The translations under genes were made by a program, and so were the position numbers. Under the pieces are notes generated by a model that saw only the letters and a list, made by a program, of their open reading frames with translations, was not told where the DNA came from and made no database searches. Source: Amphiscolops sp. MND2022 (lineage: Eukaryota). Taken from it: a DNA stretch of 64,000 nucleotides. The stretch covers positions 69,070,001-69,134,000 of the forward strand of contig OZ076409.1 in NCBI GenBank assembly GCA_964187785.1. The letters run 5' to 3'. Shown in pieces: positions 1,985 through 44,959 of the stretch (position 1 is its first letter; the number at the start of each line of letters is the position of its first letter).

Positions 1985-2090
1985 GAAGGGTTCAGCAACT
2001 CACAAGGGGTGAAGGGAAGGTATGGGAAAGAAGTAAGCAAAGAAAGAGGAAATAACAAAGACGCAAAGAAAGCCCACCCAGGAGCGCCAA

Positions 2091-5180: not shown

Positions 5181-5286
5181 GAAGGGTTCAGCAACTCACA
5201 AGGGGTGAAGGGAAGGTATGGGAAAGAAGTAAGCAAAGAAAGAGGAAATAACAAAGACGCAAAGAAAGCCCACCCAGGAGCGCCAA

Positions 5287-24300: not shown

Positions 24301-24730
24301 TTTTGTGTCCTTCAAGTGTTCACTCTATAAATCATCTCTTGGTCACCTTCTCCCCACCAGATATAGCTAAATGGCATGTGTCGTTAGATCCAACACTGTT
24401 TCCATCATTGAGTATGATCACTGAGCTTTTGCACACCGCTGAAAAATGATTCTTCTTTCCGCATTTATTGCAGATCTTCCCATAAGCAGTGCATTGTCGT
24501 TTGGCATGTTTCTTACCGCAGTATTTACATGAAGTAACTTCCTTGTGCCCGTCGCTTTGTGCCGGATATCTTTGCTTCGACGTTTGACGTCGATTACGAA
24601 TAACACTGATGTCTGTAGACCCATACATCATTGCTATTTGGCAATTATTTACCTCCTCCGATACTGACGCACTTTGAATCGCCTTATCAAATGTCATTGC
24701 TTGCTCCAATAACAACAGTTTTCTAATGAC

Positions 24731-25154
24731 TAGGGCAACCGCGATTTGCCCTTTATTTTTTAAAATTTTGCCCTTTATTTGCCGCCCTTTATTTTGAAAT
24801 TTGCCCCTTATTTGCCCTTTATCGGCAGGCGTTTGAAAGCGAGGATTTAACAAAAAAGTCAAATTCGTTCGTTAAGTGAAATGTTACAATAAATGCAAAT
24901 GTAATTCTTGATATTTGTAACATCAAAATTACGGTCCTTGGCTAGCATCTTGAGTTGCTAAATGGTTATTTCTGAGAAACTCCTGTACACAAACTCGCAC
25001 GGCTCGTATTTCTCAGAAAAGGGGTGAATATATACGAAAAAGTACAAGATTCGATGTATTTTGCCTTTTTTGCCTTTTATTAAACTTTTTGCCCCTAACC
25101 CGTATTTCTGCCCTTTTTGCCCCTATTGCCCTTTTGCCCTTTTTGGTTGCCCTA
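24731..25154. mobile_element. hAT-type MITE (424 bp) inserted in gag of element B
   Basis: TIR TAGGGCAACC/GGTTGCCCTA, exact 8-bp TSD CTAATGAC (24723-24730, 25155-25162), and subterminal TTGCCCTTT repeats. Removal rejoins DKEKVI|RKLLLLEQ. Confidence 0.92.
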
Positions 25155-26168
25155 CTAATGACTTTCTCTTTATCTGAACCAACTAAAAAACGATCTCGAA
25201 GGGAGGTGTCAAGATTACCACCAAAATTGCTCGTTTCTGCAGCTTTGCGCAGTTTACTGACAAATGCAGCAACAGACATTTTCCATCTTGCTTCACCTGG
25301 TGAAATTTGTTGCGTTCTGCAATTTCAATTGTTTTTGGTTCTAGGTGAGCTTTAATCCTGGCTTTCAGATCAGCGAAAGTCATTTTCGAACGCATTTTCT
25401 GGAGCAACGAGCGATTTGATATGAGAATATGCGTTCTCCCCGATAAGTGTAAAGTAAAAATCAGTGATCGCAGAGGTTGGAGAATCTGCAGCAATCGTGT
25501 TATCTTTGATACCTTTAGCTCTTGTTAGAGCTTCGAATCGTTCTTCCCAATCAGCAGTTTCCTCACTTTGCCATGGCATCTCTTCCATCCGGTAATCCAT
25601 GCTGATAATTCTTCAACGATATTGGAATAAGAATAATAAATTAGCCCTGTCGCCAAATGTGGTGTATGATTGACTTGGGAAAAATCATCGCGTAAAAATA
25701 CGTCCTAGTAGTTTGCTCAAAGCAGACAAACATTATAGAGCTTTGAAAAAAACACATATATCATGTTAACATCATAACATGCATAAGAAGACCACCAGAT
25801 ATAGCTAAATGGCATGTGTCGTTAGATCCAACACTGTTTCCATCATTGAGTATGATCACTGAGCTTTTGCACACCGCTGAAAAATGATTCTTCTTTCCGC
25901 ATTTATTGCAGATCTTCCCATAAGCAGTGCATTGTCGTTTGGCATGTTTCTTACCGCAGTATTTACATGAAGTAACTTCCTTGTGCCCGTCGCTTTGTGC
26001 CGGATATCTTTGCTTCGACGTTTGACGTCGATTACGAATAACACTGATGTCTGTAGACCCATACATCATTGCTATTTGGCAATTATTTACCTCCTCCGAT
26101 ACTGACGCACTTTGAATCGCCTTATCAAATGTCATTGCTTGCTCCAATAACAACAGTTTTCTAATGAC

Positions 26169-26592
26169 TAAGGCAACCGCGATTTGCCCTTTATTTTTTA
26201 AAATTTTGCCCTTTATTTGCCGCCCTTTATTTTGAAATTTGCCCCTTATTTGCCCTTTATCGGCAGGCGTTTGAAAGCGAGGATTTAACAAAAAAGTCAA
26301 ATTCGTTTGTTAAGTGAAATGTTACAATAAATGCAAATGTAATTCTTGATATTTGTAACATCAAAATTACGGTCCTTGGCTAGCATCTTGAGTTGCTAAA
26401 TGGTTATTTCTGAGAAACTCCTGTACACAAACTCGCACGGCTCGTATTTCTCAGAAAAGGGGTGAATATATACGAAAAAGTACAAGATTCGATGTATTTT
26501 GCCTTTTTTGCCTTTTATTAAACTTTTTGCCCCTAACCCGTATTTCTGCCCTTTTTGCCCCTATTGCCCTTTTGCCCTTTTTGGTTGCCCTA
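26169..26592. mobile_element. Duplicated copy of the hAT-type MITE
   Basis: Same TSD CTAATGAC. The left TIR carries one substitution (TAAGGCAACC). Confidence 0.9.
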
Positions 26593-28448
26593 CTAATGAC
26601 TTTCTCTTTATCTGAACCAACTAAAAAACGATCTCGAAGGGAGGTGTCAAGATTACCACCAAAATTGCTCGTTTCTGCAGCTTTGCGCAGTTTACTGACA
26701 AATGCAGCAACAGACATTTTCCATCTTGCTTCACCTGGTGAAATTTGTTGCGTTCTGCAATTTCAATTGTTTTTGGTTCTAGGTGAGCTTTAATCCTGGC
26801 TTTCAGATCAGCGAAAGTCATTTTCGAACGCATTTTCTGGAGCAACGAGCGATTTGATATGAGAATATGCGTTCTCCCCGATAAGTGTAAAGTAAAAATC
26901 AGTGATCGCAGAGGTTGGAGAATCTGCAGCAATCGTGTTATCTTTGATACCTTTAGCTCTTGTTAGAGCTTCGAATCGTTCTTCCCAATCAGCAGTTTCC
27001 TCACTTTGCCATGGCATCTCTTCCATCCGGTAATCCATGCTGATAATTCTTCAACGATATTGGAATAAGAATAATAAATTAGCCCTGTCGCCAAATGTGG
27101 TGTATGATTGACTTGGGAAAAATCATCGCGTAAAAATACGTCCTAGTAGTTTGCTCAAAGCAGACAAACATTATAGAGCTTTGAAAAAAACACATATATC
27201 ATGTTAACATCATAACATGCATAAGAAGACTATCGCATACTTACACAGCATATCTATGAATTGGCAAAAATTACTAGTTTACTTGGAAAACACATGAACA
27301 ATGTCAAAAGTATGAAAAGTGCCCGGTCTTACCGGAATCTAGGTGCTTGTCGCCATCTACGTACTGACTACGAGTTTCTTATTAAGCTAACGGTTTCCAC
27401 AAATCTCGAGTCTCTTGTACAATCATTGTACTTTAATACTGATATAAATTACATATAATTCTGATACAACAAACAAATGAAAGATTTAGTGAACCTAAGC
27501 ATCAGAATACTTCGACTAGGAAACAAAAAGTTTTCCTGTTGAAAAACATTTAAAAAAATTAGAAAGAAGCACATTCGGCTTTTTCTGGGTCCGTGTTGCT
27601 ACCCGTACTGACAAAAACTTGAAATTCATGACAGCCAAGAATTTCCAAGGACTGGTAAAGACTTGTCAAAATCTGGACTAGTCCTTACCACTCCTTGCCA
27701 AACCTGGTGAAACCTGGAAATACGCTGCCAAGGACTGAAACCATTTCAGGAGCTATAAGGGCCAAATCGGTGCTAGATTATGTCGAAGTAATTATTATTG
27801 GTTGCAGGAAAACACTTTCAAAAATGGTGAGAATAGTCTCTCGTCAAAAACTCATATGAGGACCTCGTAAATATCCGTTTTTATAGTCTTGGCAGGCCAA
27901 CTGGAAAACAGTCGACACTGGCAGAGCTACCAACGTCTAGGAGCATAAAAAGCCCCATTCACAATATCAAATCTAATAAATGAGCACAAAAACAATGTTG
28001 GATGTCTCTCGAAGTCCATCAAACTAACAAATCAGGACCTCGAATATATCCGTTTTAATAGCCTTAGCTGGTCAGTTGGGAAATAGCCGACACTGTCAGT
28101 GCTGATATGACAAAATTGACACAAAATACATTTGAAGGTGATAGGAAGTACAGGCAAGTGGCTTTTCATACTCAAATCCAATATGGCCGCGCCCTATATG
28201 TAACTTCGAATCTTCCATGGAAATTTCTCAAGGACTGCTAAGGACTGGACCAAGACTGGTGATGTCTTGTGTTGTTTAGTCGGCGCTTCATGAAATGAAA
28301 CGCGACTATTATAGTGACTCTTTTCTCAATCCACACGAACTGATCAAAATAGTTCAACAAAAAGTTCTCTGCAGTGTCAGTATGGGTAATTCTAAGATCT
28401 TCCCCTTTTAATAATCGAGTTTCTACTTGAGCACTGTTTTTTTTTCAG

Positions 28449-28533
28449 GTCTTTTGCTAGATCTTTGTGGCACATACAACACTTTGCTAGCTTTCGCAAT
28501 CTACCTCGTAGTGACGTCATTCTTATCAACTTT
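28449..28533 (+). CDS. MFS transporter exon 5, 5' part (interrupted by LTR element C)
   Basis: Polypyrimidine ttttttttcag| acceptor, phase 1 matching exon 4. Encodes GLLLDLCGTYNTLLAFAIYLVVTSFLSTF (last TM helix). Confidence 0.85.
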
Positions 28534-30459
28534 TGTCATGAACGTTATGGTTAGATATTCCACCTTTTTGGCGTACATCATGTCGTTCATTCCTACAGTT
28601 AGTCCTAGCGTTCGAGTTGCGCTGTTCTTCGGCATCCGTTTCCGGTCTCTCAGCCGGGACTTCCCATCCTCTTCTAGTCCCATGGACCGATCCGGCCATC
28701 ATGGCATTTTGAATTTGAGGCAACACTTGACTATTTATAGCCTCATTGATGGCCCTTTGGATCTGTGAACTAACATTATTAAGCATATCGTCCATTTCTC
28801 TCGAGATCCTAGAATTTAATTCGCTTGACAACCTGTTTATCTCTGCAAGTGAGTTTGCTTCAGCTGAGTTTTGGCCCAAGTCGGCACTTGTCCTGGGTTC
28901 ATTGTTCCTACAATTAGAATATAGGCTTTCGTCCTCATTCTCTTGATTGTCGCTTGCAACACTATTCCTCCTCCTAGCTGAATTACTATCTAAACTCCTT
29001 TCTCTTTCAATCCCGTTAAAGTGATTGTTTCCTAGCATTATATCTAGGTTTTCAATATCCGAAAGGATCTCTAATCCTCTAGACTTTCTAGTCTTCTTCT
29101 GCTTTCTCGTTGTAGGCATTGAGACTAAACCGGGTTGAAGAATTAAATTAATCAGGTCCGGAAAACAGTAATTGTTAACAGATTGTTATCAAGTTGATTG
29201 TGAGGAGCTTTTCGAAAATTGTGTCTACTCAAAGGAAGTAGCTCCTATATATACTCCCTTGGGTGGGAAAAGCATGGTAGTAACTTTAAAAAATGTCATA
29301 ACTACATTCCTAAAGCACCTGATCAGATCATATACATTCAAACATCAAAGTGCCGCTGAATTGTAGTAGCAAGGTCACGCGGCCGTTTAAATTCCTGCTT
29401 TGATGGGATTGAGAGGCATTCAAATAGCACGCGTTACTTCAAACAACATCTACTATAATATTTGCACTGCTGGTATTTGGGGAATGTCAGCTATCCCGTG
29501 CCGGCACGTGCCCCAGTAGTAAGCTAAACAAACTTACATCAAATAACGTTACATGCATAATACATCTACAAATTGCATGTGTTAATTGACAAATGAGACC
29601 GGACTGGTCTTTCGGGCAAGTATTTGAAGCACCAACACACAACTGGTGTTAATCATATCAACCGATCTGGGGGACTACATAACTGTTTGCAACACACTCA
29701 TTACTGTACATGTCATTTAGAATGCACAAAACAATCATATTGACCATCTGAGTAATAAATTGAATGGGTGGCCTAAATCGGCCATTATCCGGATAGGTAT
29801 AGCATCAGGGGAGGGAAATTAGGCAAATGGCCTTATTCGGCTAAGCATCAGGGGAAATGAAACAAAACACTAATTATCCAACGTGATCATTTAACAAACA
29901 CAGAAACGTAATTAAGCTACTTATTAATACAGTATAGCAGCGTCCACATCATTATCTTTTCATTAGCAACTTATGGCCGAAACCGGCCGTTTGACTCAAG
30001 TCCCGTTTAACAAAGGCGGAATTCAGTCATGTGGCCTTAACTGGCCATTAATTAAATACAGCACAAGTATTGTTCAAATGGATGAATGTGATTGGTTAGC
30101 ACGACTGCAGTAAGTTATATCGCCGAGAAGGGACGTTTTCGCACTTGAACACGTTTCCTTCTCGCGATTAACTTGCTCTCTTATTGTTTGCTATAGCATC
30201 AATACAACTTCGCAATTTAATTCAGCTATTACAACAACGAACTGATTTGGCTAATCCCAAATCGTAATATTAACAGACTAATTTGAACATCCAATATAAG
30301 TGATCAAATAAAATAAATACAAACAAAATACATGATGTAAACGGTTTCTAAAGTTTTAGCAGTTTTATTCTTAAAAAGTTGGCAGTGTTCCGGGTATGAC
30401 TTCTTGGTTGTTGCTTGTTGTTGTAATCATAGTGCCGTCACAGGCGGCAGCCTGCGACA
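28534..30459 (-). repeat. 3' LTR of element C (1926 bp)
   Basis: Matches 43029..44954. No differences seen in the segments compared by eye. Confidence 0.95.
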
Positions 30460-31156
30460 CTGCGGGTGTAAGGAAAAGAAACGAACCTGCATTCAACCCG
30501 TTTTCGTAGGCTTCCCTTCTCAGCTTTGTTATGAATTCTGGCTCATCTCTCGGTGTAGATCTGTCCATGTACCAATCCACTCGCTGTTTCTTGATCGCAT
30601 CTACTGAGCGGCCACAGACCATACATCCGGTATAACGTGTTTCGCTCACATTCTCGTATGGCTTCGTGTTTTGAATGTGATATGACGCCCTGAATGCAGA
30701 GTCAGCTACTACTAGCGGGGTATCCATAGACGGTCCTCTCTCGTGAGGGGGCGGTGATAGAGGTGACTCCACGACAGGAAGTAGAGTTTTGCAGAGCTCT
30801 ATCCGAGATTTCCCTATCTTCTTCGGGGGAGCATAACACATTTCTCTATCAAAATATTTGTGATCCAACTTCGGGGTCACGTCCACCTGCGTCTGCCTGG
30901 AACTTGGGCCAGCTTCTGTATCTTCTTCTTCTTCTTCGGGTAATTCTACAGTCATAATGCGGCCCCCTATTAGCATGGGGCTGGATATTACCTCTTTCTC
31001 GATCCTGGCCACTAGTTGTTCCGTATCAGTGGAATAGTCGGTTTCCCAATCCGAGGCTTCGCTCTCACTACTAGATATGTAGATGACAGATTCGTTAGAT
31101 TCGTCAGAATCATAATCCATGTCGAATAATTTCCTTGCCAGGTTGTACTTGCTCAT
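30371..31156 (-). CDS. Accessory ORF3 of element C, 261 aa, unknown function (acidic N-terminus, CxxC)
   Basis: Intact ATG-started ORF. Its last 89 nt lie in the 3' LTR. AATAAA follows the stop directly (30369-30364), with a U/GU-rich tract downstream. Confidence 0.65.
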   Translation of the reverse strand: MSKYNLARKLFDMDYDSDESNESVIYISSSESEASDWETDYSTDTEQLVARIEKEVISSPMLIGGRIMTVELPEEEEEDTEAGPSSRQTQVDVTPKLDHKYFDREMCYAPPKKIGKSRIELCKTLLPVVESPLSPPPHERGPSMDTPLVVADSAFRASYHIQNTKPYENVSETRYTGCMVCGRSVDAIKKQRVDWYMDRSTPRDEPEFITKLRREAYENGLNAGSFLFLTPAVSQAAACDGTMITTTSNNQEVIPGTLPTF

Positions 31157-32232
31157 AATGAGTTTTTTAGCTATTTTGAAGCTTGGGGAGGCAACTAGTC
31201 AGAATCAAAGTTTGAGAAAGAATGAATTCAACAAATTTGAGAATTTAGCCGACTCGGGCCTTTTCCCGACAATTCGTTTTTGGCGGTTGAATCTTCGGTA
31301 AATTACCCTAATCCGACATAAACATTCCTGAATGGAATTTCATAATTAGTCGGCCACCTTTGATATACCGATGTTTACCCGTCATCAACACCATCAGCTT
31401 AAGAGGTGTGAACGACGCTTGAGCTGCTAGCCTCAATTCTCTCCATCTCAAGTGGGTAATTAACGGGTCGCTTGAAGGCTATTAACGACACGCGCCGTTA
31501 AATTCTTTCAACATGGCTTCAGCCAATCAGAGTTAAGCTCTGATAAAATGAAAAATTAAATAATAAAATGGCGAAAATAATAAATCAAAATAATTCAAAA
31601 TGGCGGAAATAACAATTTGAGTAACTATAATAACGGAAGTCCTAATTAGGCTAACAAACAAAACGGAACGAGGTAATACAATGAAATGGGGTAAACGGCC
31701 GTAATTGGCCAATAGTTCCATGAGTTGTAAATAATGAAATAATCTTAGTACATTTCGCTGGCAGACTCCATGTACAGAATAAATATGTAAATAATCCCAT
31801 AATATTAGTCTGGTAATAATCTTCAGCCACGAACTCCAATCCTTCAATTCTTTATTTTGAATTCCAATTCAATTCCTTTTATTTTAATTGCACTTTCTCT
31901 TCCATATTCATTTGATCGGTCTCCATCTACGAACTACCCTTTCTGTCTCTAATCTCTCCCGTTAGTCATCTCTTCCGAGTATCCCTGTTTCTCCCTTTAA
32001 GCCGGGTCCGGCCAATTTCCTTCGCGGCAGCAACCCGATTGGAACACTTCCCTTTTAGACTCAGCTCAGAATGTCTTCAACTGAAGGTTGGTTTGTTTCT
32101 TTTTGAACTCAAATTTAACTTGATCAGGGCTAAATTCGTTCACAAAATGCTTCCTGTTTTCATCAATAAACGTGTGATAGCACGTTTCGTTCAAATTTTC
32201 AAACACTTCCGGAAGTTTTCTAATGCGGTAAA

Positions 32233-34299
32233 ATGGATTTTTTCCAAGGAAGCTCACCGCCAAATTTCATCTCATTCTGTTTAGAAAACCAGAATAATGA
32301 CGAATCACAGATTCGAAACACCACTTCTTCAAACAATCTTGCCGAGGTTCCTCAACGCCCGCTCCCGATTACCATGCCAAGGCCTAGATCCGATCTAATT
32401 GCTCCGTCTTCTCTATCTTCATCCAACATCCTTGCTATGCCAACAGCAGCGGTAACAGGAGGAGCCCAAGATACAGCCACTCCCTCTCCTTTCAGTGTCG
32501 ACAGTGATTTTGATGTCACGGCGTACGCTGATGAGAAAGTTTTGCTTCTCGAACGGGCCCAGGAACAGGAAGAGAGACAAATTGCCAAGAGTTCTGAACT
32601 CGGGGAACAGGAGGTTGAAGAGAGTGTCCCAGAGGGTTCACTTACGGTTGGGAACGAAATCCGATCTTCTACCTTGCCCTTCCAAACAAGCACTCCAACC
32701 AAGGATTTGCCCAGTGAGTCTGCAAGGCTGAATTTATCGCAACTAGAAGCCGGTCTCACAGTTGCTCCATCTACCCAGACGGAATTGCCAGAATTGTTGA
32801 CAACTCGCGGAAATACTACCAACATGTCAGCAGCATCATTCCTCCACCATGAGACTGACGAAAGTTCGTCTATATGTGATGCCCCCAAATTGCCGACTGG
32901 AGTCGCGGACATAGTATATTTAGACGACATAACAGGGACTGAGGAAGCTGGTGACACATCCAGTCAGGCAAGTGGACCAGCTCTATACAGTTTCCAACCA
33001 GTGGGAGGCGCAGCAGAAACTGCAGGGGAGTCATCCGTTGACACTCCTATTCCTCATCCGGATAACTTGCGTCCGTCAACATCAACGTCTGCAGAGCAAG
33101 GTTCTGGCATCAGGGAGCTCTCTGGTCGCAGCCGGGCTATTTTAAAACAATACTTCGATCAGGATGCTACTACCATCAACTTCCCCCTCGGCCATAGAAC
33201 GGTGGCTTTCACTGAGCCACAAGTGTACCATCTTTTGAGGGTCCTTACAGATGAAACCTTGAAGATGTCTTTCACTGCCATGGAACAGATGGTGATCGGG
33301 GCAGTTCGTGGAGCGCCGGTTACTTCCAGTTCTCGAACTGGTCATTTCCGAAACAGGCCAAGAGCCCAAACTCCCGGACCTGGACTTCATAGTGATTCCG
33401 AGGGCAGTTCGCATTCTGAAAATTTCCCTGAGTCAGGAACTGATACGTCTGCCGGGTCAAGTTCGGAACAAGAAGATAGAGGACTGGACTCTTCCAACAA
33501 CACTGATAGCTCTGGGGAGATGGCTCTAATTTCACAGGCTTTTAAGGAGCCTTTCAGACCTGCTTCAACTTCCTGTGGGACTACTCAAGATGATCCCCCT
33601 CAAGCAGGTTTCGAATCAGCAGATCAGTCTAGTCTTGATGCTACCCTTTCCGAGTTACGAACTCAAACTTCTCCTGCTCCGCCCTTAGCTTCAAGTTCGG
33701 GTAAAGTGCCAAAACGTAAGCAACGGAAACAGACTCGAGGTATCCCTATGAAAGAGGAGTTCTTCTCTAAAATCGGATGGACGCGCTCGTTCATTTCTGG
33801 ACCAGCAGACCCGCTCCATAATCCTTATATGGTATGGTGCCATATATGCAAAAAGAATCTTTCTGTGAAGACGAAGGGCACTTTGGAAATTCTGCGGCAC
33901 CACAGGACGGAGAAGCACCTCCGAAAAGATCAAAGATGGCGTTACGAGCACCTCAAGAGTGTTCACCCCGTGTCCGGAAAGGTGCAACATCGAGTGAGAG
34001 GCCGCAATGGGAAGATTCTCTCAGAGATTGAGTTGGCCAAGGAGATGCGCCACTTTATGCACGTTGAGTTGGTGGACATCGGAGAACGTTTCCCTTTCTA
34101 TGACGATTTCATAAAAGGAACAACCACCACACTCGTCACCCCTGAATCAAGAGCTAAGACACAGATCCAACTTATTGGGAACTTCATACAGCAGCACGGG
34201 GATATTGGAATGCTCCGCAAATTGTGGTCCCAAATAGGCTCTTTGACTAACTATCAGTCCAGCTACTGTGACTTCGATTGGGGTGAAGAAAGAATTTCG
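32233..34299 (+). CDS. Antisense accessory gene of element C, exon 1 (S/T/E-rich disordered region, basic NLS-like patch, BED-like zinc finger)
   Basis: Long ORF with KRKQRKQ and WCHIC-x15-HH-x4-H. Donor TCG|gtaagt at 34300. Start codon uncertain (32233 or a downstream ATG). Confidence 0.8.
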
Positions 34300-34382
34300 G
34301 TAAGTTCTCTATTGGGTTTGTACACTGCTTGTGGTAGGCCAAAACCTTCCAAACATTTCGTAATTCTCCTTTTCCTTTTCAG

Positions 34383-34868
34383 GCCATCTTCCAGCACATC
34401 TTCAATTGTGCAATGAACGATTTAGCAAACCAGATTGCTACCACACAGCACTTTGCCATTGAATTTGAGGATCAGGGTGTGAACAGACTCATGTCTGTCA
34501 AATTCTGGAAAGACAACACCCTCTGCCGAGTCTACGTGTGTCGAAGTGGGCTTCCTTCCTCTGACCTTACTGGAGAGTTGGGGTCCCTCTCTCGACTCCT
34601 CTCAGTAGTATCCACTAAAGCCGATATAGTCGCCTGTTCCGGATGTCCTGTCGAGCTGATTCAGACTATCGACAACAATGTTTTCTTCCCCCGGGCTGTC
34701 CAGAGTTGCTTTCGCTTCGAGCATCTGCAGCTCCAGAAGATGATGCACAAGCCCACTTTCAGTGTGTTTGGCAGAATAGACTTCTTCTCTGTTCTGAAGT
34801 GTCTCGTAGTTTCACTTGGAGCAGCTTCCAGTGAAGATTGGGCCCTGCAATCCCCTGAACTAGCACGA
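34383..34868 (+). CDS. Antisense accessory gene, exon 2 (degenerate hAT-like RNase H core)
   Basis: cttttccttttcag| acceptor, phase 0. Encodes AIFQHIFNCAMNDL...FAIEFED...CSGCP...CFRFEHLQL. Donor CGA|gttagt. Confidence 0.75.
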
Positions 34869-34947
34869 GTTAGTATATTAAGTTCAAACATGAAGCGTAA
34901 AGGGTTAGGGGGTAGGTTCGGACAAAAGACAATTCGGGTTCGTTTAG

Positions 34948-35164
34948 GCTATCGATACCTGCAAACTGGACTTGCCGAGTTTACCCAACCTCTGTCGGGA
35001 ACTTGTAAAACATTGGAAGGCGATCCGGCAGTACCTGACGTCCCATACTCCACACCAGGGAATGCAGGGGGTCCACAATCAAGTGCAGAGCTTCGAGTGG
35101 TCTCTCATCTGCGACTCCTTCTTCACCGTCAAGTTGGAGTTCTTCCAACGCATAATCAGTGATT
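34948..35164 (+). CDS. Antisense accessory gene, exon 3
   Basis: tttag| acceptor, phase 0, in the frame of ORF 34972. Encodes ELVKHWKAIRQYL. Donor T|gtgagt (phase 1). Confidence 0.75.
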
Positions 35165-35320
35165 GTGAGTATACCGCTACATATCCATATTGGTACTATA
35201 AGACATTATCAGAATGATCCTTGATCCTTGATTCCTCGGGCCACTAGCGCAGTAGGCATATCGGTATGGGTTTATGTAGACGTTTTGTTCTTTTCATGGT
35301 CTTGTCCTTTGTATTTCCAG

Positions 35321-36477
35321 ATGTCGCCAGTTTCGTTGTCAATCTGTTGGGCCGACGAGATGCAACATTTTTCCTCTGTGGAGAAGTCTGCCGATTCATC
35401 TCCAAGTTATGTGCCAGATGTTACTTGCCGGAAACCATCCCTCTCGAGAATTCGTGGTTCCTTCTCCTCAACTTCAACGTGAGCGACGGGAAGTTCATCA
35501 GCGAGGAGGAGTTCCTTGTCCGACACCGGTTGACAAATCGGATAGCTACTGCCAGCAAACAGTGTGCCGATGTTGTCCATTTGAACAAGAAATCGGAGAA
35601 AGCCGCCATTGAGAAGACAGCTGCAGAGACAACCAGCAGTTTCGTCAAAGAAGGACTGCAGTTTATTCAGTACTTGGTCAAGCAGGTCCTCAACCAAGCC
35701 GGTCTGAGCTCCGAGGTGATCAAGGGGTTGGCCGCCTTTGATCCTTTCGTCCTCTTCAAGAGGCCGAGTGAGGTCGGACTTCGTCATTTCGAGGTATTGT
35801 ACTCGACCTTCCAGCTTCGCTCCTGGGTCTCCGGTGAGAATGAGAACATCTGTCGAGATGAGTATTTGGCTTTGTTAGATCACCTGCGAGTCAATTATCC
35901 TCCAGATTTCGATTTCAATGGAAATTCCCCCGACCTGATAGACTTTCTGATGCAACTCGAGTTTTTTCAAACTCATGAGCACATTTTCCATCTTTTCAAG
36001 CTGTGCTGCTTGTGTTTGACAGAACGAAGTCTCCAATATCCCCCAGTATCTTTCGGGAGTGTTAACACTTCTGGACACCGAGGCCGTTTTGCTGACCTTA
36101 TAGAGCCCTGTCAGAGTTACCTTTCTTGCGTGCCTGACTCCATTCTACATTGTTGTTCTGACGCTAATTTAGAAAAGCTTTCAGCCCTCAGTTCTTCCTT
36201 CGAGCGTTCCGCTTTCTCCCCCGACTATGATCCATGGACCTTTGTGGATGAGTTCGGGAGGTCCAAAATTTACAAGAGCCTTCTTGCCTCCTATAAGGTC
36301 GTCACTGCTGTTTCTCCCCCTCGGGCTGTTCATCTGGCGACAGGAATTGCCTCCTCCGTGCCGGACGATTCTGCCGTAAAGGTGCCCTCCAAGAAGCAAA
36401 GGAAGCGAGCAGGTAGCAGCAGTTCTACAATTTCGTCCACTTCCAAGAAGGCTGTTCAAGGGTCCTCTAAAGACTAA
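35321..36477 (+). CDS. Antisense accessory gene, exon 4
   Basis: Long pyrimidine tract gtatttccag| acceptor, phase 1, in the frame of ORF 35266. Ends with a basic/Ser tail and TAA. Spliced total is 3927 nt = 1308 aa. Confidence 0.8.
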
Positions 36478-36709
36478 ATGTACATATGTATTTATGTACT
36501 TTCAGACTGTAAACTTTGTTCATTTCTCTGTTTCATATTTATTTTCATTTTGTTCTCTGTTGTCTTGATTTTCTGATCCCGTATTTATTTCCTTGTAAGG
36601 GATCATTCAAATGTCCCATTATTTATTCAAGAAATACTGCTGCATGGGACCGAAAAGATAAAAAGAATGAAAAGAAGAGAATTCCCATTTTCGGGAAGAA
36701 ATTCAATTC

Positions 36710-39700
36710 TTAGTATCTGAAGTCTTCTGAGTAGTTTGGATTTGGATTAGGCCTGAGATTATATTTCCCTCCTCTAGGGCTCAGATTTTCATTTCTAGCA
36801 TCTTTTTCAGATATTTCGGGCACGATAATATCATCCCCTCTTTTCGGAGAATTTTGTGCATCGTTGTCATTCGATGAATTTCTTTTTGGAGAATTTTCAT
36901 TCCCGTTTGGTCCATTTGCCATATCCGGCAGAGATTTTTCTTGGGTTTTTGGGGAAACGGCCGGATTCGGCCAATCAAATTCTTCATTTCTAATAGCTCC
37001 AGTAGCTTCATTTCTTTTAGTGACGTCATCATTTAAGCGGTCATTCCGGCTGTGTGCCGTATTGTCATTATTCGTTTCTCGCGTGATTATATAATCCGCG
37101 TCACTCTCGTTTGCGTCATTGTTGATTTGTTCCGTACTCGGCTGTTCGCCGTTCGGTGAGCTGGCCGGAATAGGCTCGCTGCCTCGTGTGTCTAGCTGTT
37201 CGCCAAAGTTTGTTTCCCACGTTATTACATACAAGTCGTCTTGCGGAATGATTATTTCGTCATCCGGCTGTAGACGCTGTTCTCGGAAATTGTCCTCAAG
37301 TGGCTGATTTGGAACAAACTTTTTGAGACGAATTCGATGCAATATCTGCGTTTTATTTGTATTAAGCCTGCGGACAATGTAATTCTCGTTAGGTAAGGTC
37401 TTCTGGACTATAAATGGTCCAACCCAACGATAATCTTTGAATGGAATTTTTGATCCTTGATGATCCGCTTTCGGCTGTAATACAAAACAGTAATCACCCT
37501 CTTTGAGTGGGGCGGCTTTTGCTTTTCGGTCATAATACTCCTTATATTTGATATATGACTGCATGATGTTCTGCTTAGTTTTGTCAATAAGGAGTTTTGT
37601 CCGGTTTTGGATTTCTTCTGCGAATTCAGTAGTCGGATGGATTTGCTCGTTTGGATTTGTTCCAAGCTTGTGATCCAAGATGTTGTATGGGATTCTTCCA
37701 TGGAACACTCTTGTCGGTTCACATCCGATACTGGCATGGTAACTAGTATTGTGATTCAGAACTGCTAATGGCAAATATTTGTGCCATTGTCGGCGATATT
37801 CTCCACATGCCATTTTCAAGTTTGTTTTCAATGAGGCATGTGTGCGCTCCAATTTCCCGATAGTTTGCGGGTGCTTTGTCGTTGCACATTTTAGGGTGAT
37901 TCCTAAAATTTGGGTAATTTCTGCAATAATCGTGGAAGTGAAGGCAGTTCCTTTGTCTGTAATGAGCGTTGTCGGTAAGTAGGAATGTTTGGTCATAATG
38001 TCAACGAGTGCTTTGGCTACATTGATCGCTGATGCGTCCGTGAGAGGGTAAGCGAATAAATATCTGGAGAAAACATCAATTGCCGTTAGGACATTTTCAT
38101 ACCCTCCGCTTGGGGGAAGATTCGGCAATAGGTCAATTTGCATGGCGTCTTCAGGTCCAAGGTCCCATTCGGGCAAATTTAGTAGTTCAGGCGTGATCGT
38201 TGCATTAGGGACTCTTTTGTCTCTGGCGCATTGTTCACACCCTTCTACCCACTTTTTGACATGTTTTGCCATGTTGGGATAATAATACCTTTGTCTGATT
38301 TCCTGCAACATTTTTGAAATCCCGGGATGTTTATGCGCTGTCCCGTGAAGGGAGTGGAGCAGTTCCCGAAGTAGGTGTTGCGGGAGCAAGATTTGATGGT
38401 ATTTAACATTCCCTGTTTCATCAAAATATTGCCGTGTTAGGATTTCGTCCTTTAGTACAATTCGTTCCAGATTATTTGCATAGTGTCTATATCGAGCGTC
38501 CTGTTGCAGTATGTTTTCTGAGTAGTCTTCGTGAAGGAGTTTTGCCTTCAATTGTTGTAATACTGCATCCTTGGATTGCTCGATAATTATCTGGTTTGTT
38601 TTCCTCAATCGGTCTTGTATTTCAGGTTGTTGTTTGGTTAAGTTGGTGGAAAGAGTTTGTATTGTAACTGTAGGGTCTTCGATTACAGGATTGTTCCTGA
38701 TTGCTTCTTTCCTCGCCCAATATTGTTCTTCGGTCTCGTCGTCGTCATTGGTGTAGAAGATTTGTTCTTCCTGTGAGACTCCTGCTGATTGGACGTTTAT
38801 TTCTATTGGTAGCGTTTGTACATCTTCTCGGATTTTCATTACTAATTTGTCCTTTGGGTCTGCTTCCAGTCGGGACAAGTAATCCGCTGCCGTATTCTGT
38901 GCTCCTGGGATGTGTGCAATGACAAAATTGAACTGAATTACATAGTCGCATGCGTTCCACAGAGCTGGGGGTACGATTTTCGTCTGAAAGAATCTCGTTA
39001 CGGCTTTGTTGTCGGTTAGAATTATGACCGGTTTCGGTGCTCCCCAAAAAATATGCCCAAATTCTCTGAATGCGAAATAAATCGCAAGAAATTCTTTTGC
39101 ATAAATTGACATTTTTATCTGGGCTGGGGTGAAGGTTTTTGAACCATAAGCGACCGGTGCATATGATTTGCGGATTGACGTGAATTTCTGACTCGGATCA
39201 TCTTCAATGAGTACTGCGTATCCTGCAGCTCCAAAACTTGCATCTGTCATGAGTGCAATCTGCTTGTTGGGAATGGGTTGTTGTAAGGCTAAGTCGCAAC
39301 ATTTGTCCAGAGCTCGGTTGATTTCCTCAAATTGCTGTACCAATTCTTTTGATACTAGGACTTTTTCGTCACTTTTCAGCATCTTGTAGAATGGGGCAAG
39401 GCGTTCGGACAGTCTTGGAACGTAGTTTCGGTAGTAGTTCAGGAAGCCCAAATATCTTTGCAATGCCTTTTTCGACTTTGGAAATTTGGTTTTTTCTAGA
39501 AAATTCTGAACGTTCTGTCGTTGAGGTTTGACGCCTTGTGGAGTAATCGTTCGTCCAAGGAAATCAATTTCACGGGCACCAAAATGACACTTGTGCATCG
39601 TCAATTTAAGGCCTGCTTCCTGAATGCATTTGAAAGTTGCTCTTAGGTTAGCAATGAGATGGTCGGCGTCGTTGGCGGCGATGCCGATATCGTCCACATA

Positions 39701-41914
39701 CTGGGCGCACTGATCCGCTTTGATGACTTTGTCGAGGTATTCCCTCATGAAACTCGAGAATGCGGATAGTGACCGGCTAAGGCCTTGTGCCAAGCGTCTG
39801 TAGGCGAATGTGCGACTGGCAAAATTGAAAGCCAACATTTCGATTGAGCGTTGGTCGGCCATTGGTAGGCAGTGGTATGCCTGCGAACAGTCTAATTTGC
39901 AGAACAGTTTTTTGCCTGCCAGGTGTTGGGCAGCATCAACTAGTGTGCTGACAGGATGATTATTGTTTATATAATCATCAGAAATCAGGTTGTTGATTTT
40001 TCTCAGGTCGACTAAAAGTCGCAGTTTCCCATTTGGTTTCTTTTGGGCGAATATTGGGCTTGCATACTTTGAGAACGGTAGAGTGGTGATGATGCCATAT
40101 TTGTGTAACATGGCTAATTCGACGAGGATGTCCTCCTTTAGATTGATAGGAGCTGGGAGACTTTGACTATAGGCTGGGGAATCGTCCTTAGGCGTCAGTT
40201 TCACCTTAAATTCCTCATTCATGCCTATATCGAATCGGTGTCTTGCGAAGATATCGTGGAATTCCACTAACAGTTCCTCTATTTTCTCCTTCTCTTCAGG
40301 AGTAAGGGTGGAATCTTTCCAATCGAAGTTTTCCAAGAATTTTGCACGTGATTCTTCATCTTTGGTGGGGTCGAGTGTCTCCAGTTCCTGTAAGGCCTGT
40401 AATTCTCGGAGGATTCGTTTCTGTATCGGTGTGTGTTCCTCAGGGTTTCCAGGATTTTCTGGAGTTGGGAACCAATAGTTTTCAGAATCTTGTAGATTTT
40501 TGTTGGTCTTGATGAGACTGCTGACATAATGGGCCGCCTGCTCTTGGTCGTTTTGCAAAAGATGCCAGGTTGATGCCGGGTCTACCGGTTTAACATGTTT
40601 CATTTGTTCTGGCGTCATGACTGAGAAATTGGCAATATGGAGTCCCTTTTTGAGTTTGTAAGGGTGGTCTGTGAAATTGTTCACTGGTATCAATATATTG
40701 CCCTCATTCAGAGTGACCAAAGCTGGGCAAAATGTGATGTCGCCTTCTTCGTGTAGGAGGTCGCTCGGTTGCAAGATTCCGGTGACAGCATTCTCAGGGT
40801 ACAACAGGGAATTGGTCCTAATTAGGACTTTATCATTTGGCGGAATGGTTATTTCAGTAGGGTTGAGAATTGGTTCTAGCACGTTTGAGTATTTATGGTC
40901 AGCTGTTTTTAGCTGCATTGAAAAGAACGGGAAGTTCAGGATTCCTTGCCTCATGTCCAGAACTGTATGATTTCGCTGGAGGAACATTAGTCCGATAATC
41001 GGACCTGTCAGGTGTTCCATGACTATAAAAATCTCATGAAACTCAATGTCGCCAACTTCAAATTTAAGTTCTATTGTGCTTTTGGGCGTTTCCAGTTGCC
41101 CATTAGCGACCATGATTTGGAAATTCGGAGGCGGACCTTCCCGGATAACAGATTGTGGAGATAAGAGTCGAATTTTCCGGAGGTCCATTTCTGGAATTGC
41201 ACTGGACAATGCTCCAGTGTCAATGAGTCCATCTATGGTCAGCTCCCCAAAGTCCATGGGGAAGTACAACATGCGCTTCTTGCATTTGAGATTGATGTTG
41301 GTCGACAAGGGTATACAGTCTGGTTCACCGTCTCTGGTGATTAGGACGTTCTGGAATTGCTTCTCGTCTAATAGTGATTGTGGTGTAGGTTCGGAGTTGT
41401 CCTCATGGGCCTCGGTCCCCAATGGGTTCGGGAACACTGGGTGGTTCGTACCATCATTCATCTGCCAGTTTTCAACTAGTGCTCTGGTCTTTTTATTGTG
41501 GGTAATTGGAGGGTTCTCATGGACTGTTCTATTGTAGTGCTCGATGTCATCTAGGACATATTGGAATTGTAGTAGTTCCTGGTTGTAGATCTCTGTGTCC
41601 CAATAGGGATCTCTGCCGTAATCTGGATCTATGTAGGTAGGATTGTAATTGTCAACCAGGGGAATGGGCCTGAATCGGCTATTGAAAGCAGATGTATAGT
41701 CAGGGTCCCATACAGGAATTGGTTTTTGGAACAAATGAGTGTTATTGTATGTAATGATGGTAGCTTTTTCCATTTGTTGCTGCCAGACAACAGAGGGATA
41801 GCCCATCAATTGTTGATTGTATTGGTGGAAAGTTTGCGTTGGAGGGTCCGATCTGATGTATTGTCGGACAGATATCAGTTCGTTGTATTGGAGTCGTGGC
41901 GAAGTTAGTTTTTT
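36710..41914 (-). CDS. pol: Element C pol: protease, dUTPase-like spacer, RT, RNase H, integrase (via -1 frameshift)
   Basis: LIDTGA; YVDD; TDAS...KEFLA...TDNK; H-H-C-C zinc domain; IDLL...TDKG...KLER; WVGPF. The frame is open up to the slippery site at 41914-41908. Confidence 0.97.
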   Translation of the reverse strand, partial: KKLTSPRLQYNELISVRQYIRSDPPTQTFHQYNQQLMGYPSVVWQQQMEKATIITYNNTHLFQKPIPVWDPDYTSAFNSRFRPIPLVDNYNPTYIDPDYGRDPYWDTEIYNQELLQFQYVLDDIEHYNRTVHENPPITHNKKTRALVENWQMNDGTNHPVFPNPLGTEAHEDNSEPTPQSLLDEKQFQNVLITRDGEPDCIPLSTNINLKCKKRMLYFPMDFGELTIDGLIDTGALSSAIPEMDLRKIRLLSPQSVIREGPPPNFQIMVANGQLETPKSTIELKFEVGDIEFHEIFIVMEHLTGPIIGLMFLQRNHTVLDMRQGILNFPFFSMQLKTADHKYSNVLEPILNPTEITIPPNDKVLIRTNSLLYPENAVTGILQPSDLLHEEGDITFCPALVTLNEGNILIPVNNFTDHPYKLKKGLHIANFSVMTPEQMKHVKPVDPASTWHLLQNDQEQAAHYVSSLIKTNKNLQDSENYWFPTPENPGNPEEHTPIQKRILRELQALQELETLDPTKDEESRAKFLENFDWKDSTLTPEEKEKIEELLVEFHDIFARHRFDIGMNEEFKVKLTPKDDSPAYSQSLPAPINLKEDILVELAMLHKYGIITTLPFSKYASPIFAQKKPNGKLRLLVDLRKINNLISDDYINNNHPVSTLVDAAQHLAGKKLFCKLDCSQAYHCLPMADQRSIEMLAFNFASRTFAYRRLAQGLSRSLSAFSSFMREYLDKVIKADQCAQYVDDIGIAANDADHLIANLRATFKCIQEAGLKLTMHKCHFGAREIDFLGRTITPQGVKPQRQNVQNFLEKTKFPKSKKALQRYLGFLNYYRNYVPRLSERLAPFYKMLKSDEKVLVSKELVQQFEEINRALDKCCDLALQQPIPNKQIALMTDASFGAAGYAVLIEDDPSQKFTSIRKSYAPVAYGSKTFTPAQIKMSIYAKEFLAIYFAFREFGHIFWGAPKPVIILTDNKAVTRFFQTKIVPPALWNACDYVIQFNFVIAHIPGAQNTAADYLSRLEADPKDKLVMKIREDVQTLPIEINVQSAGVSQEEQIFYTNDDDETEEQYWARKEAIRNNPVIEDPTVTIQTLSTNLTKQQPEIQDRLRKTNQIIIEQSKDAVLQQLKAKLLHEDYSENILQQDARYRHYANNLERIVLKDEILTRQYFDETGNVKYHQILLPQHLLRELLHSLHGTAHKHPGISKMLQEIRQRYYYPNMAKHVKKWVEGCEQCARDKRVPNATITPELLNLPEWDLGPEDAMQIDLLPNLPPSGGYENVLTAIDVFSRYLFAYPLTDASAINVAKALVDIMTKHSYLPTTLITDKGTAFTSTIIAEITQILGITLKCATTKHPQTIGKLERTHASLKTNLKMACGEYRRQWHKYLPLAVLNHNTSYHASIGCEPTRVFHGRIPYNILDHKLGTNPNEQIHPTTEFAEEIQNRTKLLIDKTKQNIMQSYIKYKEYYDRKAKAAPLKEGDYCFVLQPKADHQGSKIPFKDYRWVGPFIVQKTLPNENYIVRRLNTNKTQILHRIRLKKFVPNQPLEDNFREQRLQPDDEIIIPQDDLYVITWETNFGEQLDTRGSEPIPASSPNGEQPSTEQINNDANESDADYIITRETNNDNTAHSRNDRLNDDVTKRNEATGAIRNEEFDWPNPAVSPKTQEKSLPDMANGPNGNENSPKRNSSNDNDAQNSPKRGDDIIVPEISEKDARNENLSPRGGKYNLRPNPNPNYSEDFRY

Positions 41915-43614
41915 GACTCATCGTTGGAAGATGAGGCCTGTGAGTTGGAAGATGTTGACTTATGTTGTGGTTTCTGCGCTTTTGAATTGGGTTTTCCGTC
42001 ATTAGCGTCGTCTGGTCTGGTGCGTTTGGGTTTGAGATGCGCACCAGCGCCTTGCCAGCATCTTTCTTCCGGGTGGTTCTTTTTACCACAAGTGCCACAC
42101 TCCGGATACGTCTTTTTCTGAGTCTGTTTGCCTTGTTGGGCATCTTTTTCCTTTTTCTTCTTCAACTTTTCGCAGTCCTTGACCATATGGCCCTTTTCCT
42201 TGCAATAGTTGCAGGTTATATCTGACATTTGCCCAGTAGTTAGAGGAGTCTTGGATTTTGTCGAGGAGGTCATTGTGGCCATTGGTAGGTCGTCTGATTC
42301 CTCTAGTGCATTGAGTTCTAATTCTCTCTCCAAATGAGCAACTATTTCGTCATAAGAGCCATTTTCGAGTCTAGCCATGTTGACAGACCGCTTCAATTTT
42401 GGTGGCAGCTTTGCGTAGAGCAAGCTGTCAATCATTTTCTGGGCGTGATCCCCAAATGCTTTTTCTGCCCCTTGATTTAGTTCTTCAAGGAAATCTGGTA
42501 ATTTCATCGTATTGGGATCAAAGACCAGGCGGTGCCATTTATGCTTGGCAGTCGCCTGTGATTCGGGCTTGACGTATTTTCGTCTGAAGATGATTAATAC
42601 GTCTTCTAAAGTTTGTCTGTTGCTGGAGCTGATGTTTCTGAAGGTTTGAAGAGCATTCTTTCTCAATAAAGAGTGGAAGTGATTGATCTTCATTTGCTCA
42701 GTCATCTCTGGCTGCATCTTGATCATCGTATGGAACAGGTCCTCAAACAGCTCGAATTTTTCACTCTTGCCATCAAAAGTCATTGTGTTTGAGTTGACCG
42801 GGCGTATAGTGAGTTGTTGGGCTGTCGGCCTATTCTGCATCGTTGTCAAGACGTCTGCCAATCGAGTAATAGGGTCGGTTTGGGCAGCCGGAGCATTTCT
42901 CTCTTGCGCTGGGATCGTCGTGTCAAGGTTGATGTCCTCATAGGACCTGTCGAGATGGTTTCTGGATGAGACTCGTCCCATGAGAAACTCGGGAACTTGA
43001 GGTGGAGATTCGTTGTCTCCTGTCACCATGTCATGAACGTTATGGTTAGATATTCCACCTTTTTGGCGTACATCATGTCGTTCATTCCTACAGTTAGTCC
43101 TAGCGTTCGAGTTGCGCTGTTCTTCGGCATCCGTTTCCGGTCTCTCAGCCGGGACTTCCCATCCTCTTCTAGTCCCATGGACCGATCCGGCCATCATGGC
43201 ATTTTGAATTTGAGGCAACACTTGACTATTTATAGCCTCATTGATGGCCCTTTGGATCTGTGAACTAACATTATTAAGCATATCGTCCATTTCTCTCGAG
43301 ATCCTAGAATTTAATTCGCTTGACAACCTGTTTATCTCTGCAAGTGAGTTTGCTTCAGCTGAGTTTTGGCCCAAGTCGGCACTTGTCCTGGGTTCATTGT
43401 TCCTACAATTAGAATATAGGCTTTCGTCCTCATTCTCTTGATTGTCGCTTGCAACACTATTCCTCCTCCTAGCTGAATTACTATCTAAACTCCTTTCTCT
43501 TTCAATCCCGTTAAAGTGATTGTTTCCTAGCATTATATCTAGGTTTTCAATATCCGAAAGGATCTCTAATCCTCTAGACTTTCTAGTCTTCTTCTGCTTT
43601 CTCGTTGTAGGCAT
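41905..43614 (-). CDS. gag: Element C gag, 569 aa, two CCHC knuckles; starts inside the 5' LTR
   Basis: FDGKSEKFELFEDLF capsid-like region, CNYCKEKGHMVKDC and CGTCGKKNHPEERC. Confidence 0.95.
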   Translation of the reverse strand: MPTTRKQKKTRKSRGLEILSDIENLDIMLGNNHFNGIERERSLDSNSARRRNSVASDNQENEDESLYSNCRNNEPRTSADLGQNSAEANSLAEINRLSSELNSRISREMDDMLNNVSSQIQRAINEAINSQVLPQIQNAMMAGSVHGTRRGWEVPAERPETDAEEQRNSNARTNCRNERHDVRQKGGISNHNVHDMVTGDNESPPQVPEFLMGRVSSRNHLDRSYEDINLDTTIPAQERNAPAAQTDPITRLADVLTTMQNRPTAQQLTIRPVNSNTMTFDGKSEKFELFEDLFHTMIKMQPEMTEQMKINHFHSLLRKNALQTFRNISSSNRQTLEDVLIIFRRKYVKPESQATAKHKWHRLVFDPNTMKLPDFLEELNQGAEKAFGDHAQKMIDSLLYAKLPPKLKRSVNMARLENGSYDEIVAHLERELELNALEESDDLPMATMTSSTKSKTPLTTGQMSDITCNYCKEKGHMVKDCEKLKKKKEKDAQQGKQTQKKTYPECGTCGKKNHPEERCWQGAGAHLKPKRTRPDDANDGKPNSKAQKPQHKSTSSNSQASSSNDESKN

Positions 43615-44954
43615 TGAGACTAAACCGGGTTGAAGAATTAAATTAATCAGGTCCGGAAAACAGTAATTGTTAACAGATTGTTATCAAGTTGATTGTGAGG
43701 AGCTTTTCGAAAATTGTGTCTACTCAAAGGAAGTAGCTCCTATATATACTCCCTTGGGTGGGAAAAGCATGGTAGTAACTTTAAAAAATGTCATAACTAC
43801 ATTCCTAAAGCACCTGATCAGATCATATACATTCAAACATCAAAGTGCCGCTGAATTGTAGTAGCAAGGTCACGCGGCCGTTTAAATTCCTGCTTTGATG
43901 GGATTGAGAGGCATTCAAATAGCACGCGTTACTTCAAACAACATCTACTATAATATTTGCACTGCTGGTATTTGGGGAATGTCAGCTATCCCGTGCCGGC
44001 ACGTGCCCCAGTAGTAAGCTAAACAAACTTACATCAAATAACGTTACATGCATAATACATCTACAAATTGCATGTGTTAATTGACAAATGAGACCGGACT
44101 GGTCTTTCGGGCAAGTATTTGAAGCACCAACACACAACTGGTGTTAATCATATCAACCGATCTGGGGGACTACATAACTGTTTGCAACACACTCATTACT
44201 GTACATGTCATTTAGAATGCACAAAACAATCATATTGACCATCTGAGTAATAAATTGAATGGGTGGCCTAAATCGGCCATTATCCGGATAGGTATAGCAT
44301 CAGGGGAGGGAAATTAGGCAAATGGCCTTATTCGGCTAAGCATCAGGGGAAATGAAACAAAACACTAATTATCCAACGTGATCATTTAACAAACACAGAA
44401 ACGTAATTAAGCTACTTATTAATACAGTATAGCAGCGTCCACATCATTATCTTTTCATTAGCAACTTATGGCCGAAACCGGCCGTTTGACTCAAGTCCCG
44501 TTTAACAAAGGCGGAATTCAGTCATGTGGCCTTAACTGGCCATTAATTAAATACAGCACAAGTATTGTTCAAATGGATGAATGTGATTGGTTAGCACGAC
44601 TGCAGTAAGTTATATCGCCGAGAAGGGACGTTTTCGCACTTGAACACGTTTCCTTCTCGCGATTAACTTGCTCTCTTATTGTTTGCTATAGCATCAATAC
44701 AACTTCGCAATTTAATTCAGCTATTACAACAACGAACTGATTTGGCTAATCCCAAATCGTAATATTAACAGACTAATTTGAACATCCAATATAAGTGATC
44801 AAATAAAATAAATACAAACAAAATACATGATGTAAACGGTTTCTAAAGTTTTAGCAGTTTTATTCTTAAAAAGTTGGCAGTGTTCCGGGTATGACTTCTT
44901 GGTTGTTGCTTGTTGTTGTAATCATAGTGCCGTCACAGGCGGCAGCCTGCGACA
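43029..44954 (-). repeat. 5' LTR of element C (1926 bp)
   Basis: Direct repeat of 28534..30459, adjacent to the PBS. Confidence 0.95.
43740..43750 (-). promoter_or_regulatory. Putative TATA box of the element C LTR
   Basis: AGTATATATAG on the minus strand, ~130 nt upstream of the gag ATG. Confidence 0.45.
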
Positions 44955-44959
44955 ACTTT

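What the first reader, a model, noticed from the sequence alone, without database searches (positions are those of the whole stretch)
32233..36477. Gypsy retrotransposon carrying an intact, three-intron antisense gene for a zinc-finger/hAT-transposase-like protein
Seen: four + strand ORF pieces between pol and the 3' LTR join through three GT-AG introns (34300-34382, 34869-34947, 35165-35320) with compatible phases into one stop-free 1308-aa frame. It lies tail-to-tail with pol, only ~230 bp away, and I found no TIRs or TSD around it. Known: introns antisense to the genomic RNA escape splicing and survive reverse transcription, and Gypsy extra ORFs are usually env-like or intronless. Inference: the layout (BED-like finger; FAIEFED, CSGCP and CFRFEH resembling hAT D/DG/CxxH positions; a C-terminal helix lacking the S..ER.FS glutamate) suggests a catalytically dead hAT/ZNF862-type transposase. 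It may have been captured as stable cargo and act as a DNA-binding regulator, anti-silencing factor or targeting factor.
Basis: partly seen in the sequence, partly recalled or inferred. Interest (0 to 1): 0.92.

Follow-up and report, generated by a model that had tools for sequence, protein, structure and literature searches.

The report
Retrotransposon carries spliced dead-transposase gene
A very abundant family of copy-and-paste jumping genes carries, written backwards and split by introns, a large extra gene that selection keeps intact and that looks like a disarmed enzyme taken from a cut-and-paste transposon, probably reused to control the element's own activity.

The parts
43029..44954 (-). 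5' LTR, 1926 bp, TG..CA; holds a TATATA at LTR position 1207 and the gag ATG at position 1341 (window 43614)
28534..30459 (-). 3' LTR, 100% identical to the 5' LTR; TSD ACTTT at 28529-28533 and 44955-44959; no polypurine tract in front of it
43011..43028 (-). candidate primer-binding site starting TGGT, directly after the 5' LTR (priming tRNA not identified)
41905..43614 (-). gag (weak DUF1759 and zf-CCHC matches, below cut-off); starts inside the LTR; ends at an A-AAA-AAC heptamer (41914-41908) where pol opens in the -1 frame (frameshift inferred)
36710..41917 (-). pol, 1735 aa open: protease, RT, RNase H, integrase (Gypsy order)
36478..36709 (.). 232-bp spacer between the two stop codons; three AATAAA on the pol strand (36538, 36584, 36622), none on the gene strand in the window copy
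   Evidence: 1-3 per copy in 27 of 27 rows against 0.5-0.8 in shuffles
32071..32086 (+). probable first coding exon (16 nt, MSSTE), in frame with 32285 onward; gives a 1296-aa product
   Evidence: ATG and following GT in 27 of 27 rows; inferred, no RNA
   Evidence: no Rfam match, no stable fold
33838..33918 (+). C-x2-C..H-x5-H zinc finger (C536, C539, H556/H557, H562; 94-99% conserved), BED-like
34300..34382 (+). intron 1 (83 bp, phase 0)
34383..34868 (+). exon 2: predicted helix, three strands, helix, strand, helix, strand (RNase-H-like core); best structural match Hermes
34869..34947 (+). intron 2 (79 bp, phase 0)
34948..35164 (+). exon 3 (217 bp, no length change in 26 of 26 copies)
35165..35320 (+). 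intron 3 (156 bp, phase 1)
35321..36477 (+). exon 4: all-helical domain aligned to Hermes 368-574, then a basic tail (KKQRKR, aa 1281)
30371..31156 (-). second accessory ORF, 261 aa, same sense as gag-pol, acidic N-terminus, CxxC, no membrane segment, last 30 codons inside the 3' LTR; under purifying selection

Best explanation
An ancestor of this Gypsy clade took up a spliced hAT-type transposase gene in reverse orientation between pol and the 3' LTR. SHOWN: the gene is now a fixed part of the element, copied with it, kept under strong purifying selection and swapped between sub-lineages as a module. ESTABLISHED LOGIC: introns that are antisense in the genomic RNA are not spliced from it, so they survive reverse transcription. 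INFERRED (about 0.75): the protein descends from a hAT transposase and has lost its catalytic residues and the transposon ends. INFERRED (about 0.4): it is made from its own internal antisense promoter and enters the nucleus (two basic runs). It binds DNA of its own element through the zinc finger and transposase scaffold, and uses the long acidic N-terminal region to switch on or de-silence the element's transcription. The ultraconserved 200-bp block at the gene's 5' end is the best candidate promoter or binding site.
Confidence: 0.45

Rival explanations
1. Same origin, but the protein works at integration: it binds the cDNA ends or target DNA and helps nuclear import or targeting of the integrase complex, reusing the transposase's end-binding scaffold.
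For: The whole transposase-like scaffold, not just the finger, is under dN/dS of about 0.05-0.1. Such a role is proposed for antisense ORFs in PMC7264820 (parts 1-2 read). The element lacks a polypurine tract, so its cDNA handling may be unusual.
Against: Gene and pol are exchanged independently: copies with 92-93% pol DNA identity have only 50-57% protein identity in exon 4, while copies with 85-88% pol identity have 91-92%. Tight co-evolution with integrase is therefore not evident. The 5-bp TSD is Gypsy-like, not the 8 bp of hAT (family values recalled).
Confidence: 0.2
2. The protein is not of hAT descent; it is a host zinc-finger gene or an unrelated fold with a chance likeness to Hermes.
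Against: Two independent exon models and two Atlas queries point to the same superfamily, in the right domain order. The Foldseek list for exon 2 is rich in DDE cores, with Hermes at the highest query TM-score shown, 0.28.
Confidence: 0.17
3. The protein or its antisense RNA controls RNA processing: read-through of the poly(A) signals after pol, export of unspliced RNA, or dsRNA-based self-limitation.
For: Conserved AATAAA signals on the pol strand sit right after pol, and one follows the ORF3 stop in the LTR, so full-length RNA must bypass them. Introns diverge more slowly than synonymous sites.
Against: Selection is on the amino-acid sequence of a 1300-aa protein with a DNA-transposase-like build. 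The conserved block shows no stable RNA fold (z -1.2 and -0.3).
Confidence: 0.1
4. The protein is still an active nuclease with an altered active site (conserved glutamates on strand 1).
For: E716 and E718 are 95-97% conserved; active-site mapping is by eye.
Against: No conserved acid at the second and third expected positions; CxxH and RW absent; no TIRs to act on.
Confidence: 0.06
5. A simple nested DNA-transposon insertion in one or a few Gypsy copies.
For: The genome holds ordinary hAT transposases.
Against: Present in 29 of 29 pol-picked copies and in deeply diverged families at the same site; purifying selection; no TIR pair; not similar to the genome's own hATs.
Confidence: 0.02

Closest known systems
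aORF-3R class: antisense additional ORFs between pol and 3' LTR (maize Grande gene23, rice RIRE2, PvRetro13; review PMC7264820, parts 1-2 of 3 read plus passages)
   Same: Position, orientation, presence in most copies, conservation like gag-pol, suspected nuclear regulatory role; Grande gene23 has its own promoter and a nuclear product.
   Different: The review says these ORFs lack similarity to other TEs and that their origin is unknown. Here the product is about 1300 aa, has 3-4 spliceosomal introns and probably descends from a whole hAT transposase.
Retand TRP28 / Transposase_28 (PF04195) antisense ORFs (PMC11963269, passages read)
   Same: Antisense, nearly universal in the lineage (97% of clusters), predicted DNA binding, 'transposase' in the name.
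   Different: Plant-only short domain with no similarity to other known TEs according to that paper; the word 'intron' does not occur in its main text; no PF04195 match here.
brtn of Botrytis Boty/BcGypsy1 (Zhao 2011, PMID 21802103: not held; seen only as a citation and in passages of PMC7264820 and PMC8365987)
   Same: Antisense accessory gene in a non-plant Gypsy element. Unchecked notes of this scan describe small intron-containing antisense genes in fungal elements.
   Different: By those notes, small Cys-rich or Zn2Cys6-like products; not a transposase scaffold. Whether brtn itself is spliced I could not read.
Plant mobile domain (PMD) shared by Gypsy and MULE elements (PMC5418596, passages read)
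   Same: A domain moving between an LTR retrotransposon, a DNA transposon and host genes, linked to silencing control.
   Different: PMD is cargo of both element types; here the cargo appears to be the DNA transposon's own core enzyme, disarmed.
Hermes / hAT transposases and dead domesticated hATs (FAM200, GTF2IRD2, ZBED; their inactive status recalled)
   Same: Order: finger, RNase-H-like core, helical insertion, C-terminal helical part; best structural match.
   Different: No DDE, CxxH or RW; no TIR or 8-bp TSD; lives inside a retrotransposon; about 490-aa acidic N-terminal extension; undetectable by Pfam.
Extra ORFs of animal Gypsy elements: bdelloid ORF3s (PMC5408684) and planarian Burro (PMC6431247), passages read
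   Same: Animal LTR elements with captured non-env genes.
   Different: The passages describe ORF3s expressed from spliced element messages or domains within a polyprotein; neither main text mentions an intron-bearing antisense transposase gene (term counts).

Membership tests
Ty3/Gypsy LTR retrotransposon | Two LTRs with TG..CA ends and a short TSD | tested here: met
   1926 bp, 100% identical, TSD ACTTT
Ty3/Gypsy LTR retrotransposon | gag then pol in the order PR-RT-RH-IN | tested here: met
Ty3/Gypsy LTR retrotransposon | PBS after the 5' LTR | tested here: inconclusive
   TGGT start present; matching tRNA not identified (no tRNA gene in the window)
Ty3/Gypsy LTR retrotransposon | Polypurine tract before the 3' LTR | tested here: not met
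   pyrimidine-rich coding sequence in 21 of 21 rows; the neighbouring Gypsy has a normal PPT
aORF-3R antisense accessory genes | [quoted passage not shown] | tested here: met
aORF-3R antisense accessory genes | Transcribed from an internal antisense promoter | not testable with these tools
   no RNA holder listed
hAT transposase | N-terminal BED-type zinc finger | tested here: inconclusive
   C2H2 ligands 94-99% conserved; zf-BED only E 0.014 in 3 of 54 sequences; Atlas 0.84-0.86
hAT transposase | RNase-H core interrupted by a large helical insertion | tested here: inconclusive
hAT transposase | DDE catalytic triad | tested here: not met
   E/S/P at the positions mapped by eye against the motifs of alignment A3
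hAT transposase | CxxH and RW motifs | tested here: not met
   CFRF and no RW in the family columns; both motifs present in the in-genome hATs
hAT transposase | C-terminal hAT dimerisation domain PF05699 | tested here: inconclusive
   0 of 60 exon-4 family members hit it; Atlas clusters ranked 2 and 3 carry it in 53-60% of members
hAT transposon (element) | Own TIRs and 8-bp TSD | tested here: not met
   gene borders are shared with the retroelement across copies
ZNF862 / FAM200 / GTF2IRD2 subgroup | Sequence kinship with this hAT subgroup | not tested
   only Atlas leads; no such reference found in the genome (DUF4371 and zf-C2H2_12 searches empty and without a positive control)
env-like ORF | Sense orientation with a transmembrane segment | tested here: not met
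   antisense gene max hydropathy 1.54; sense ORF3 max 1.17

The most novel reading that the evidence does not exclude
A whole, highly successful clade of LTR retrotransposons has domesticated the core enzyme of a class II (hAT) transposon as an obligatory, spliced, catalytically dead accessory gene. This is TE-to-TE domestication across classes. The gene behaves like a normal eukaryotic gene inside a retroelement (it gains or loses introns and is traded between pol lineages). With a second accessory ORF it forms a complex, foamy-virus-like regulatory cassette that may explain the clade's expansion to thousands of sites.
Probability: 0.5. Interest if true: 0.86.

Novelty: new variant of a known kind. 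Interest (0 to 1): 0.74.

Why it matters
The origin and job of antisense accessory genes in LTR retrotransposons are open questions. The review PMC7264820 says that nested-TE origin lacks support because no similarity to other TEs is seen. This family offers a traceable case: a probable transposase ancestry, thousands of candidate sites, clear selection, and splice junctions that mark its transcript apart from genomic RNA. It also poses a sharp evolutionary puzzle. A product made from a separate mRNA should act in trans and invite gene-less cheaters, yet every pol-picked copy examined keeps the gene.

Tried and rejected
RNA runs: no RNA holder listed, so no reads were laid; this is no evidence either way. 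A 12.6-kb whole-element query was not scored. A search for longer, full-length homologues found none, which is weak evidence. Pfam on exons and family members gave no hAT family. PDB sequence searches with the exon profiles found nothing meaningful; as a control, the in-genome hAT profile found Hermes at 6e-74. Foldseek against PDB and viral models: no hit at E<=0.001. VIA second look at Foldseek's list: only generic helical matches, Hermes not among the rows shown. hhalign against 8 in-genome hAT frames: probability at most 3.2%; the hAT profile was shallow. DUF4371 and zf-C2H2_12 searches of the genome were empty and had no positive control. Rfam over the element: 0 matches at E<=1. Folding the conserved block: not better than shuffles. 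A homodimer prediction for the finger region never ran, so oligomer state is untested. Whether 14 further distant loci also abut pol was left unchecked, so 'never outside Gypsy' rests on 3 distant loci plus 12 mid-distance ones. Read-through of intron 2 was rejected (off-frame lengths in 14 of 26 copies; selection on the spliced exon-3 frame). An env role was rejected (no membrane segment). The organism was not determined. Literature: 10 searches found no report of a hAT-derived antisense gene in an LTR element; subscription papers (e.g. Zhao 2011, Steinbauerova 2011) and Repbase/Dfam entries were not visible, and no supplements were read.

Full report
Setting. The window is G000:C1:69070001-69134000 of a 1.067-Gb eukaryotic assembly in 1929 contigs. 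The organism was not determined. The finding lies in an LTR element spanning 28534-44954 on the minus strand. Its LTRs are 1926 bp, 100% identical, end TG..CA and are flanked by ACTTT. Gag begins inside the 5' LTR at 43614 and ends at an A-AAA-AAC heptamer where pol opens in the -1 frame (frameshifting is inferred from the recalled motif). Pol is a 1735-aa open frame with protease, RT, RNase H and integrase in Gypsy order. There is no polypurine tract before the 3' LTR, whereas a second Gypsy in the window has one.

The observation. I aligned 26 other copies, chosen from the 107 scored exon-4 hits of 7813 candidates; this choice favours intact copies. All three donor and acceptor pairs are present in 27 of 27 rows. 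Length changes that are not multiples of three affect 7, 14 and 16 of 26 copies in introns 1-3, but 2, 0 and 0 of 26 in exons 2-4. For 10 of the 26 copies I computed dN/dS. The other two + frames give 0.8 or more, and the complementary minus frame shadows the low value, as expected. Among 150 database relatives of exon 4 (424 clusters at E<=0.001), three run across the exon 3/4 junction without a gap and three carry a 22-24-residue insert exactly there. No RNA run was listed, so splicing is inferred from sequence evolution only.

A correction to the 5' end. A 16-nt exon at 32071-32086 (ATG..GAAG, then GTTGGT) is present in 27 of 27 rows and splices in frame to an acceptor at 32284. Conservation changes from DNA-level to codon-level right at that acceptor. 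The intervening 198-203 bp vary off-frame in 16 of 26 copies. I put the extra intron at about 60%. The block has no Rfam match and no stable fold.

Cargo, not nested insertion. Searching with pol DNA alone gave 17 copies at 99% or more, and all 17 have the gene 3200 bp away. Of the 23 further pol hits (92-93%), I fetched 12; all 12 have an exon-4 homologue in place at 50-57% protein identity. Three loci found with a distant protein (31-36% identity in exon 4) all lie tail-to-tail with a related pol. Two of them, read at DNA level, keep introns at the same three positions and add one near aa 897. No TIR pair brackets the gene. Protein P0147 has no match above 32% in the main rows of this genome's search, so the family probably extends to other genomes; all named sources are ENA, without organism. 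Candidate counts (7813 for exon 4, 8202 for ORF3, 4210 for pol DNA) suggest thousands of sites but are not copy numbers. Pol and gene have different nearest relatives, which shows module exchange, most simply by template switching during reverse transcription (inferred).

A second accessory gene. A 261-aa ORF (31156-30371, minus strand) lies head-to-head with the antisense gene and ends inside the 3' LTR, followed by AATAAA. Its dN/dS is 0.07-0.11 in 12 mid-distance copies and it is strongly diverged in two others. It has no Pfam family and no membrane segment.

How it most likely works. Genomic RNA runs from the 5' LTR through gag-pol and carries the gene's antisense strand, so the introns persist through reverse transcription (established logic). 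After integration an internal promoter drives the + strand transcript, which is spliced (inferred). The product has two basic runs, a finger, a dead transposase body and an acidic tail. The simplest job that selection on element replication would keep is binding the element's own DNA and promoting or protecting its transcription (confidence about 0.45). An integration or import role (0.2), a non-hAT origin (0.17), control of RNA processing (0.1), residual nuclease activity (0.06) and nested insertion (0.02) are the rivals. None of the functional options was tested directly.

Comparison with what is known. Antisense ORFs between pol and the 3' LTR are a described class: PMC7264820 (parts 1-2 read), PMC11963269 (passages), and Boty brtn (citation and passages in PMC8365987 only). 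Unchecked notes of this scan list intron-containing antisense genes in fungal elements. They lowered my estimate of how novel the layout is; I did not test them beyond confirming that brtn is cited. PMD shows domain traffic between Gypsy and MULE (PMC5418596, passages). What I did not find in 10 paper searches is an LTR element whose fixed accessory gene is a full-length, multi-intron, catalytically dead DNA transposase. Subscription papers, repeat databases and supplements were not visible.

Verdict. A real, selected feature and a new variant of a known kind. The anatomy and heritability are well supported, the hAT ancestry is probable, and the function is inferred. Interest 0.74.

Noticed in passing
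window 30371-31156 (-): Second accessory ORF, 261 aa, dN/dS 0.07-0.11 in the 12 mid-distance copies where dS is not saturated; 8202 candidates, 146 scored. A TAG/CAG acceptor-like site lies about 40 nt upstream, as for an env-position spliced message. No Pfam family.
   Followed up: partly
window 32087-32284: Block about 91% identical in copies whose neighbouring synonymous sites are saturated; candidate promoter, binding site or recombination boundary.
   Followed up: partly
window 43029-43614 and 28534-29119: The first 195 gag codons lie inside the LTR, so the 3' LTR repeats the start of gag.
   Followed up: no
window 30460-30500: No polypurine tract before the 3' LTR in any of 21 rows; plus-strand priming is unexplained.
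   Followed up: partly
L043-L054 versus L007-L020; L009, L012: Pol and the accessory module have discordant nearest relatives, so the young 17-copy burst looks recombinant; L009 and L012 have a swapped ORF3/LTR end.
   Followed up: partly
L027:880-1000, L028:2730-2850: Distant families have an additional GT-AG intron near aa 897, and proteins P0007, P0062, P0147 lack an insert at intron 3: intron gain or loss inside a retroelement gene (the proteins could also come from cDNA).
   Followed up: partly
window 55236-61154 (+): A second, ordinary young Gypsy: identical 196-bp LTRs, TSD TCCTT, single 1771-aa gag-pol frame, canonical PPT.
   Followed up: partly
window 46663-47300 and 53200-53839: 97.5% identical 640-bp direct repeats around 5.9 kb with a 306-aa frame (48275-49195, -) that has no Pfam match; possibly another LTR element.
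   Followed up: no
window 1435-7830 and 24354-27230: Tandem duplications of 3.2 kb (98%) and 1.44 kb (99.9%); the first follows a 385-aa CCHC gag-like frame (842-1999, -) and holds 29-bp repeats.
   Followed up: no
L036-L041: The genome holds long open hAT transposase frames of Hermes/Ac type with full motifs; none resembles the cargo gene by sequence.
   Followed up: partly
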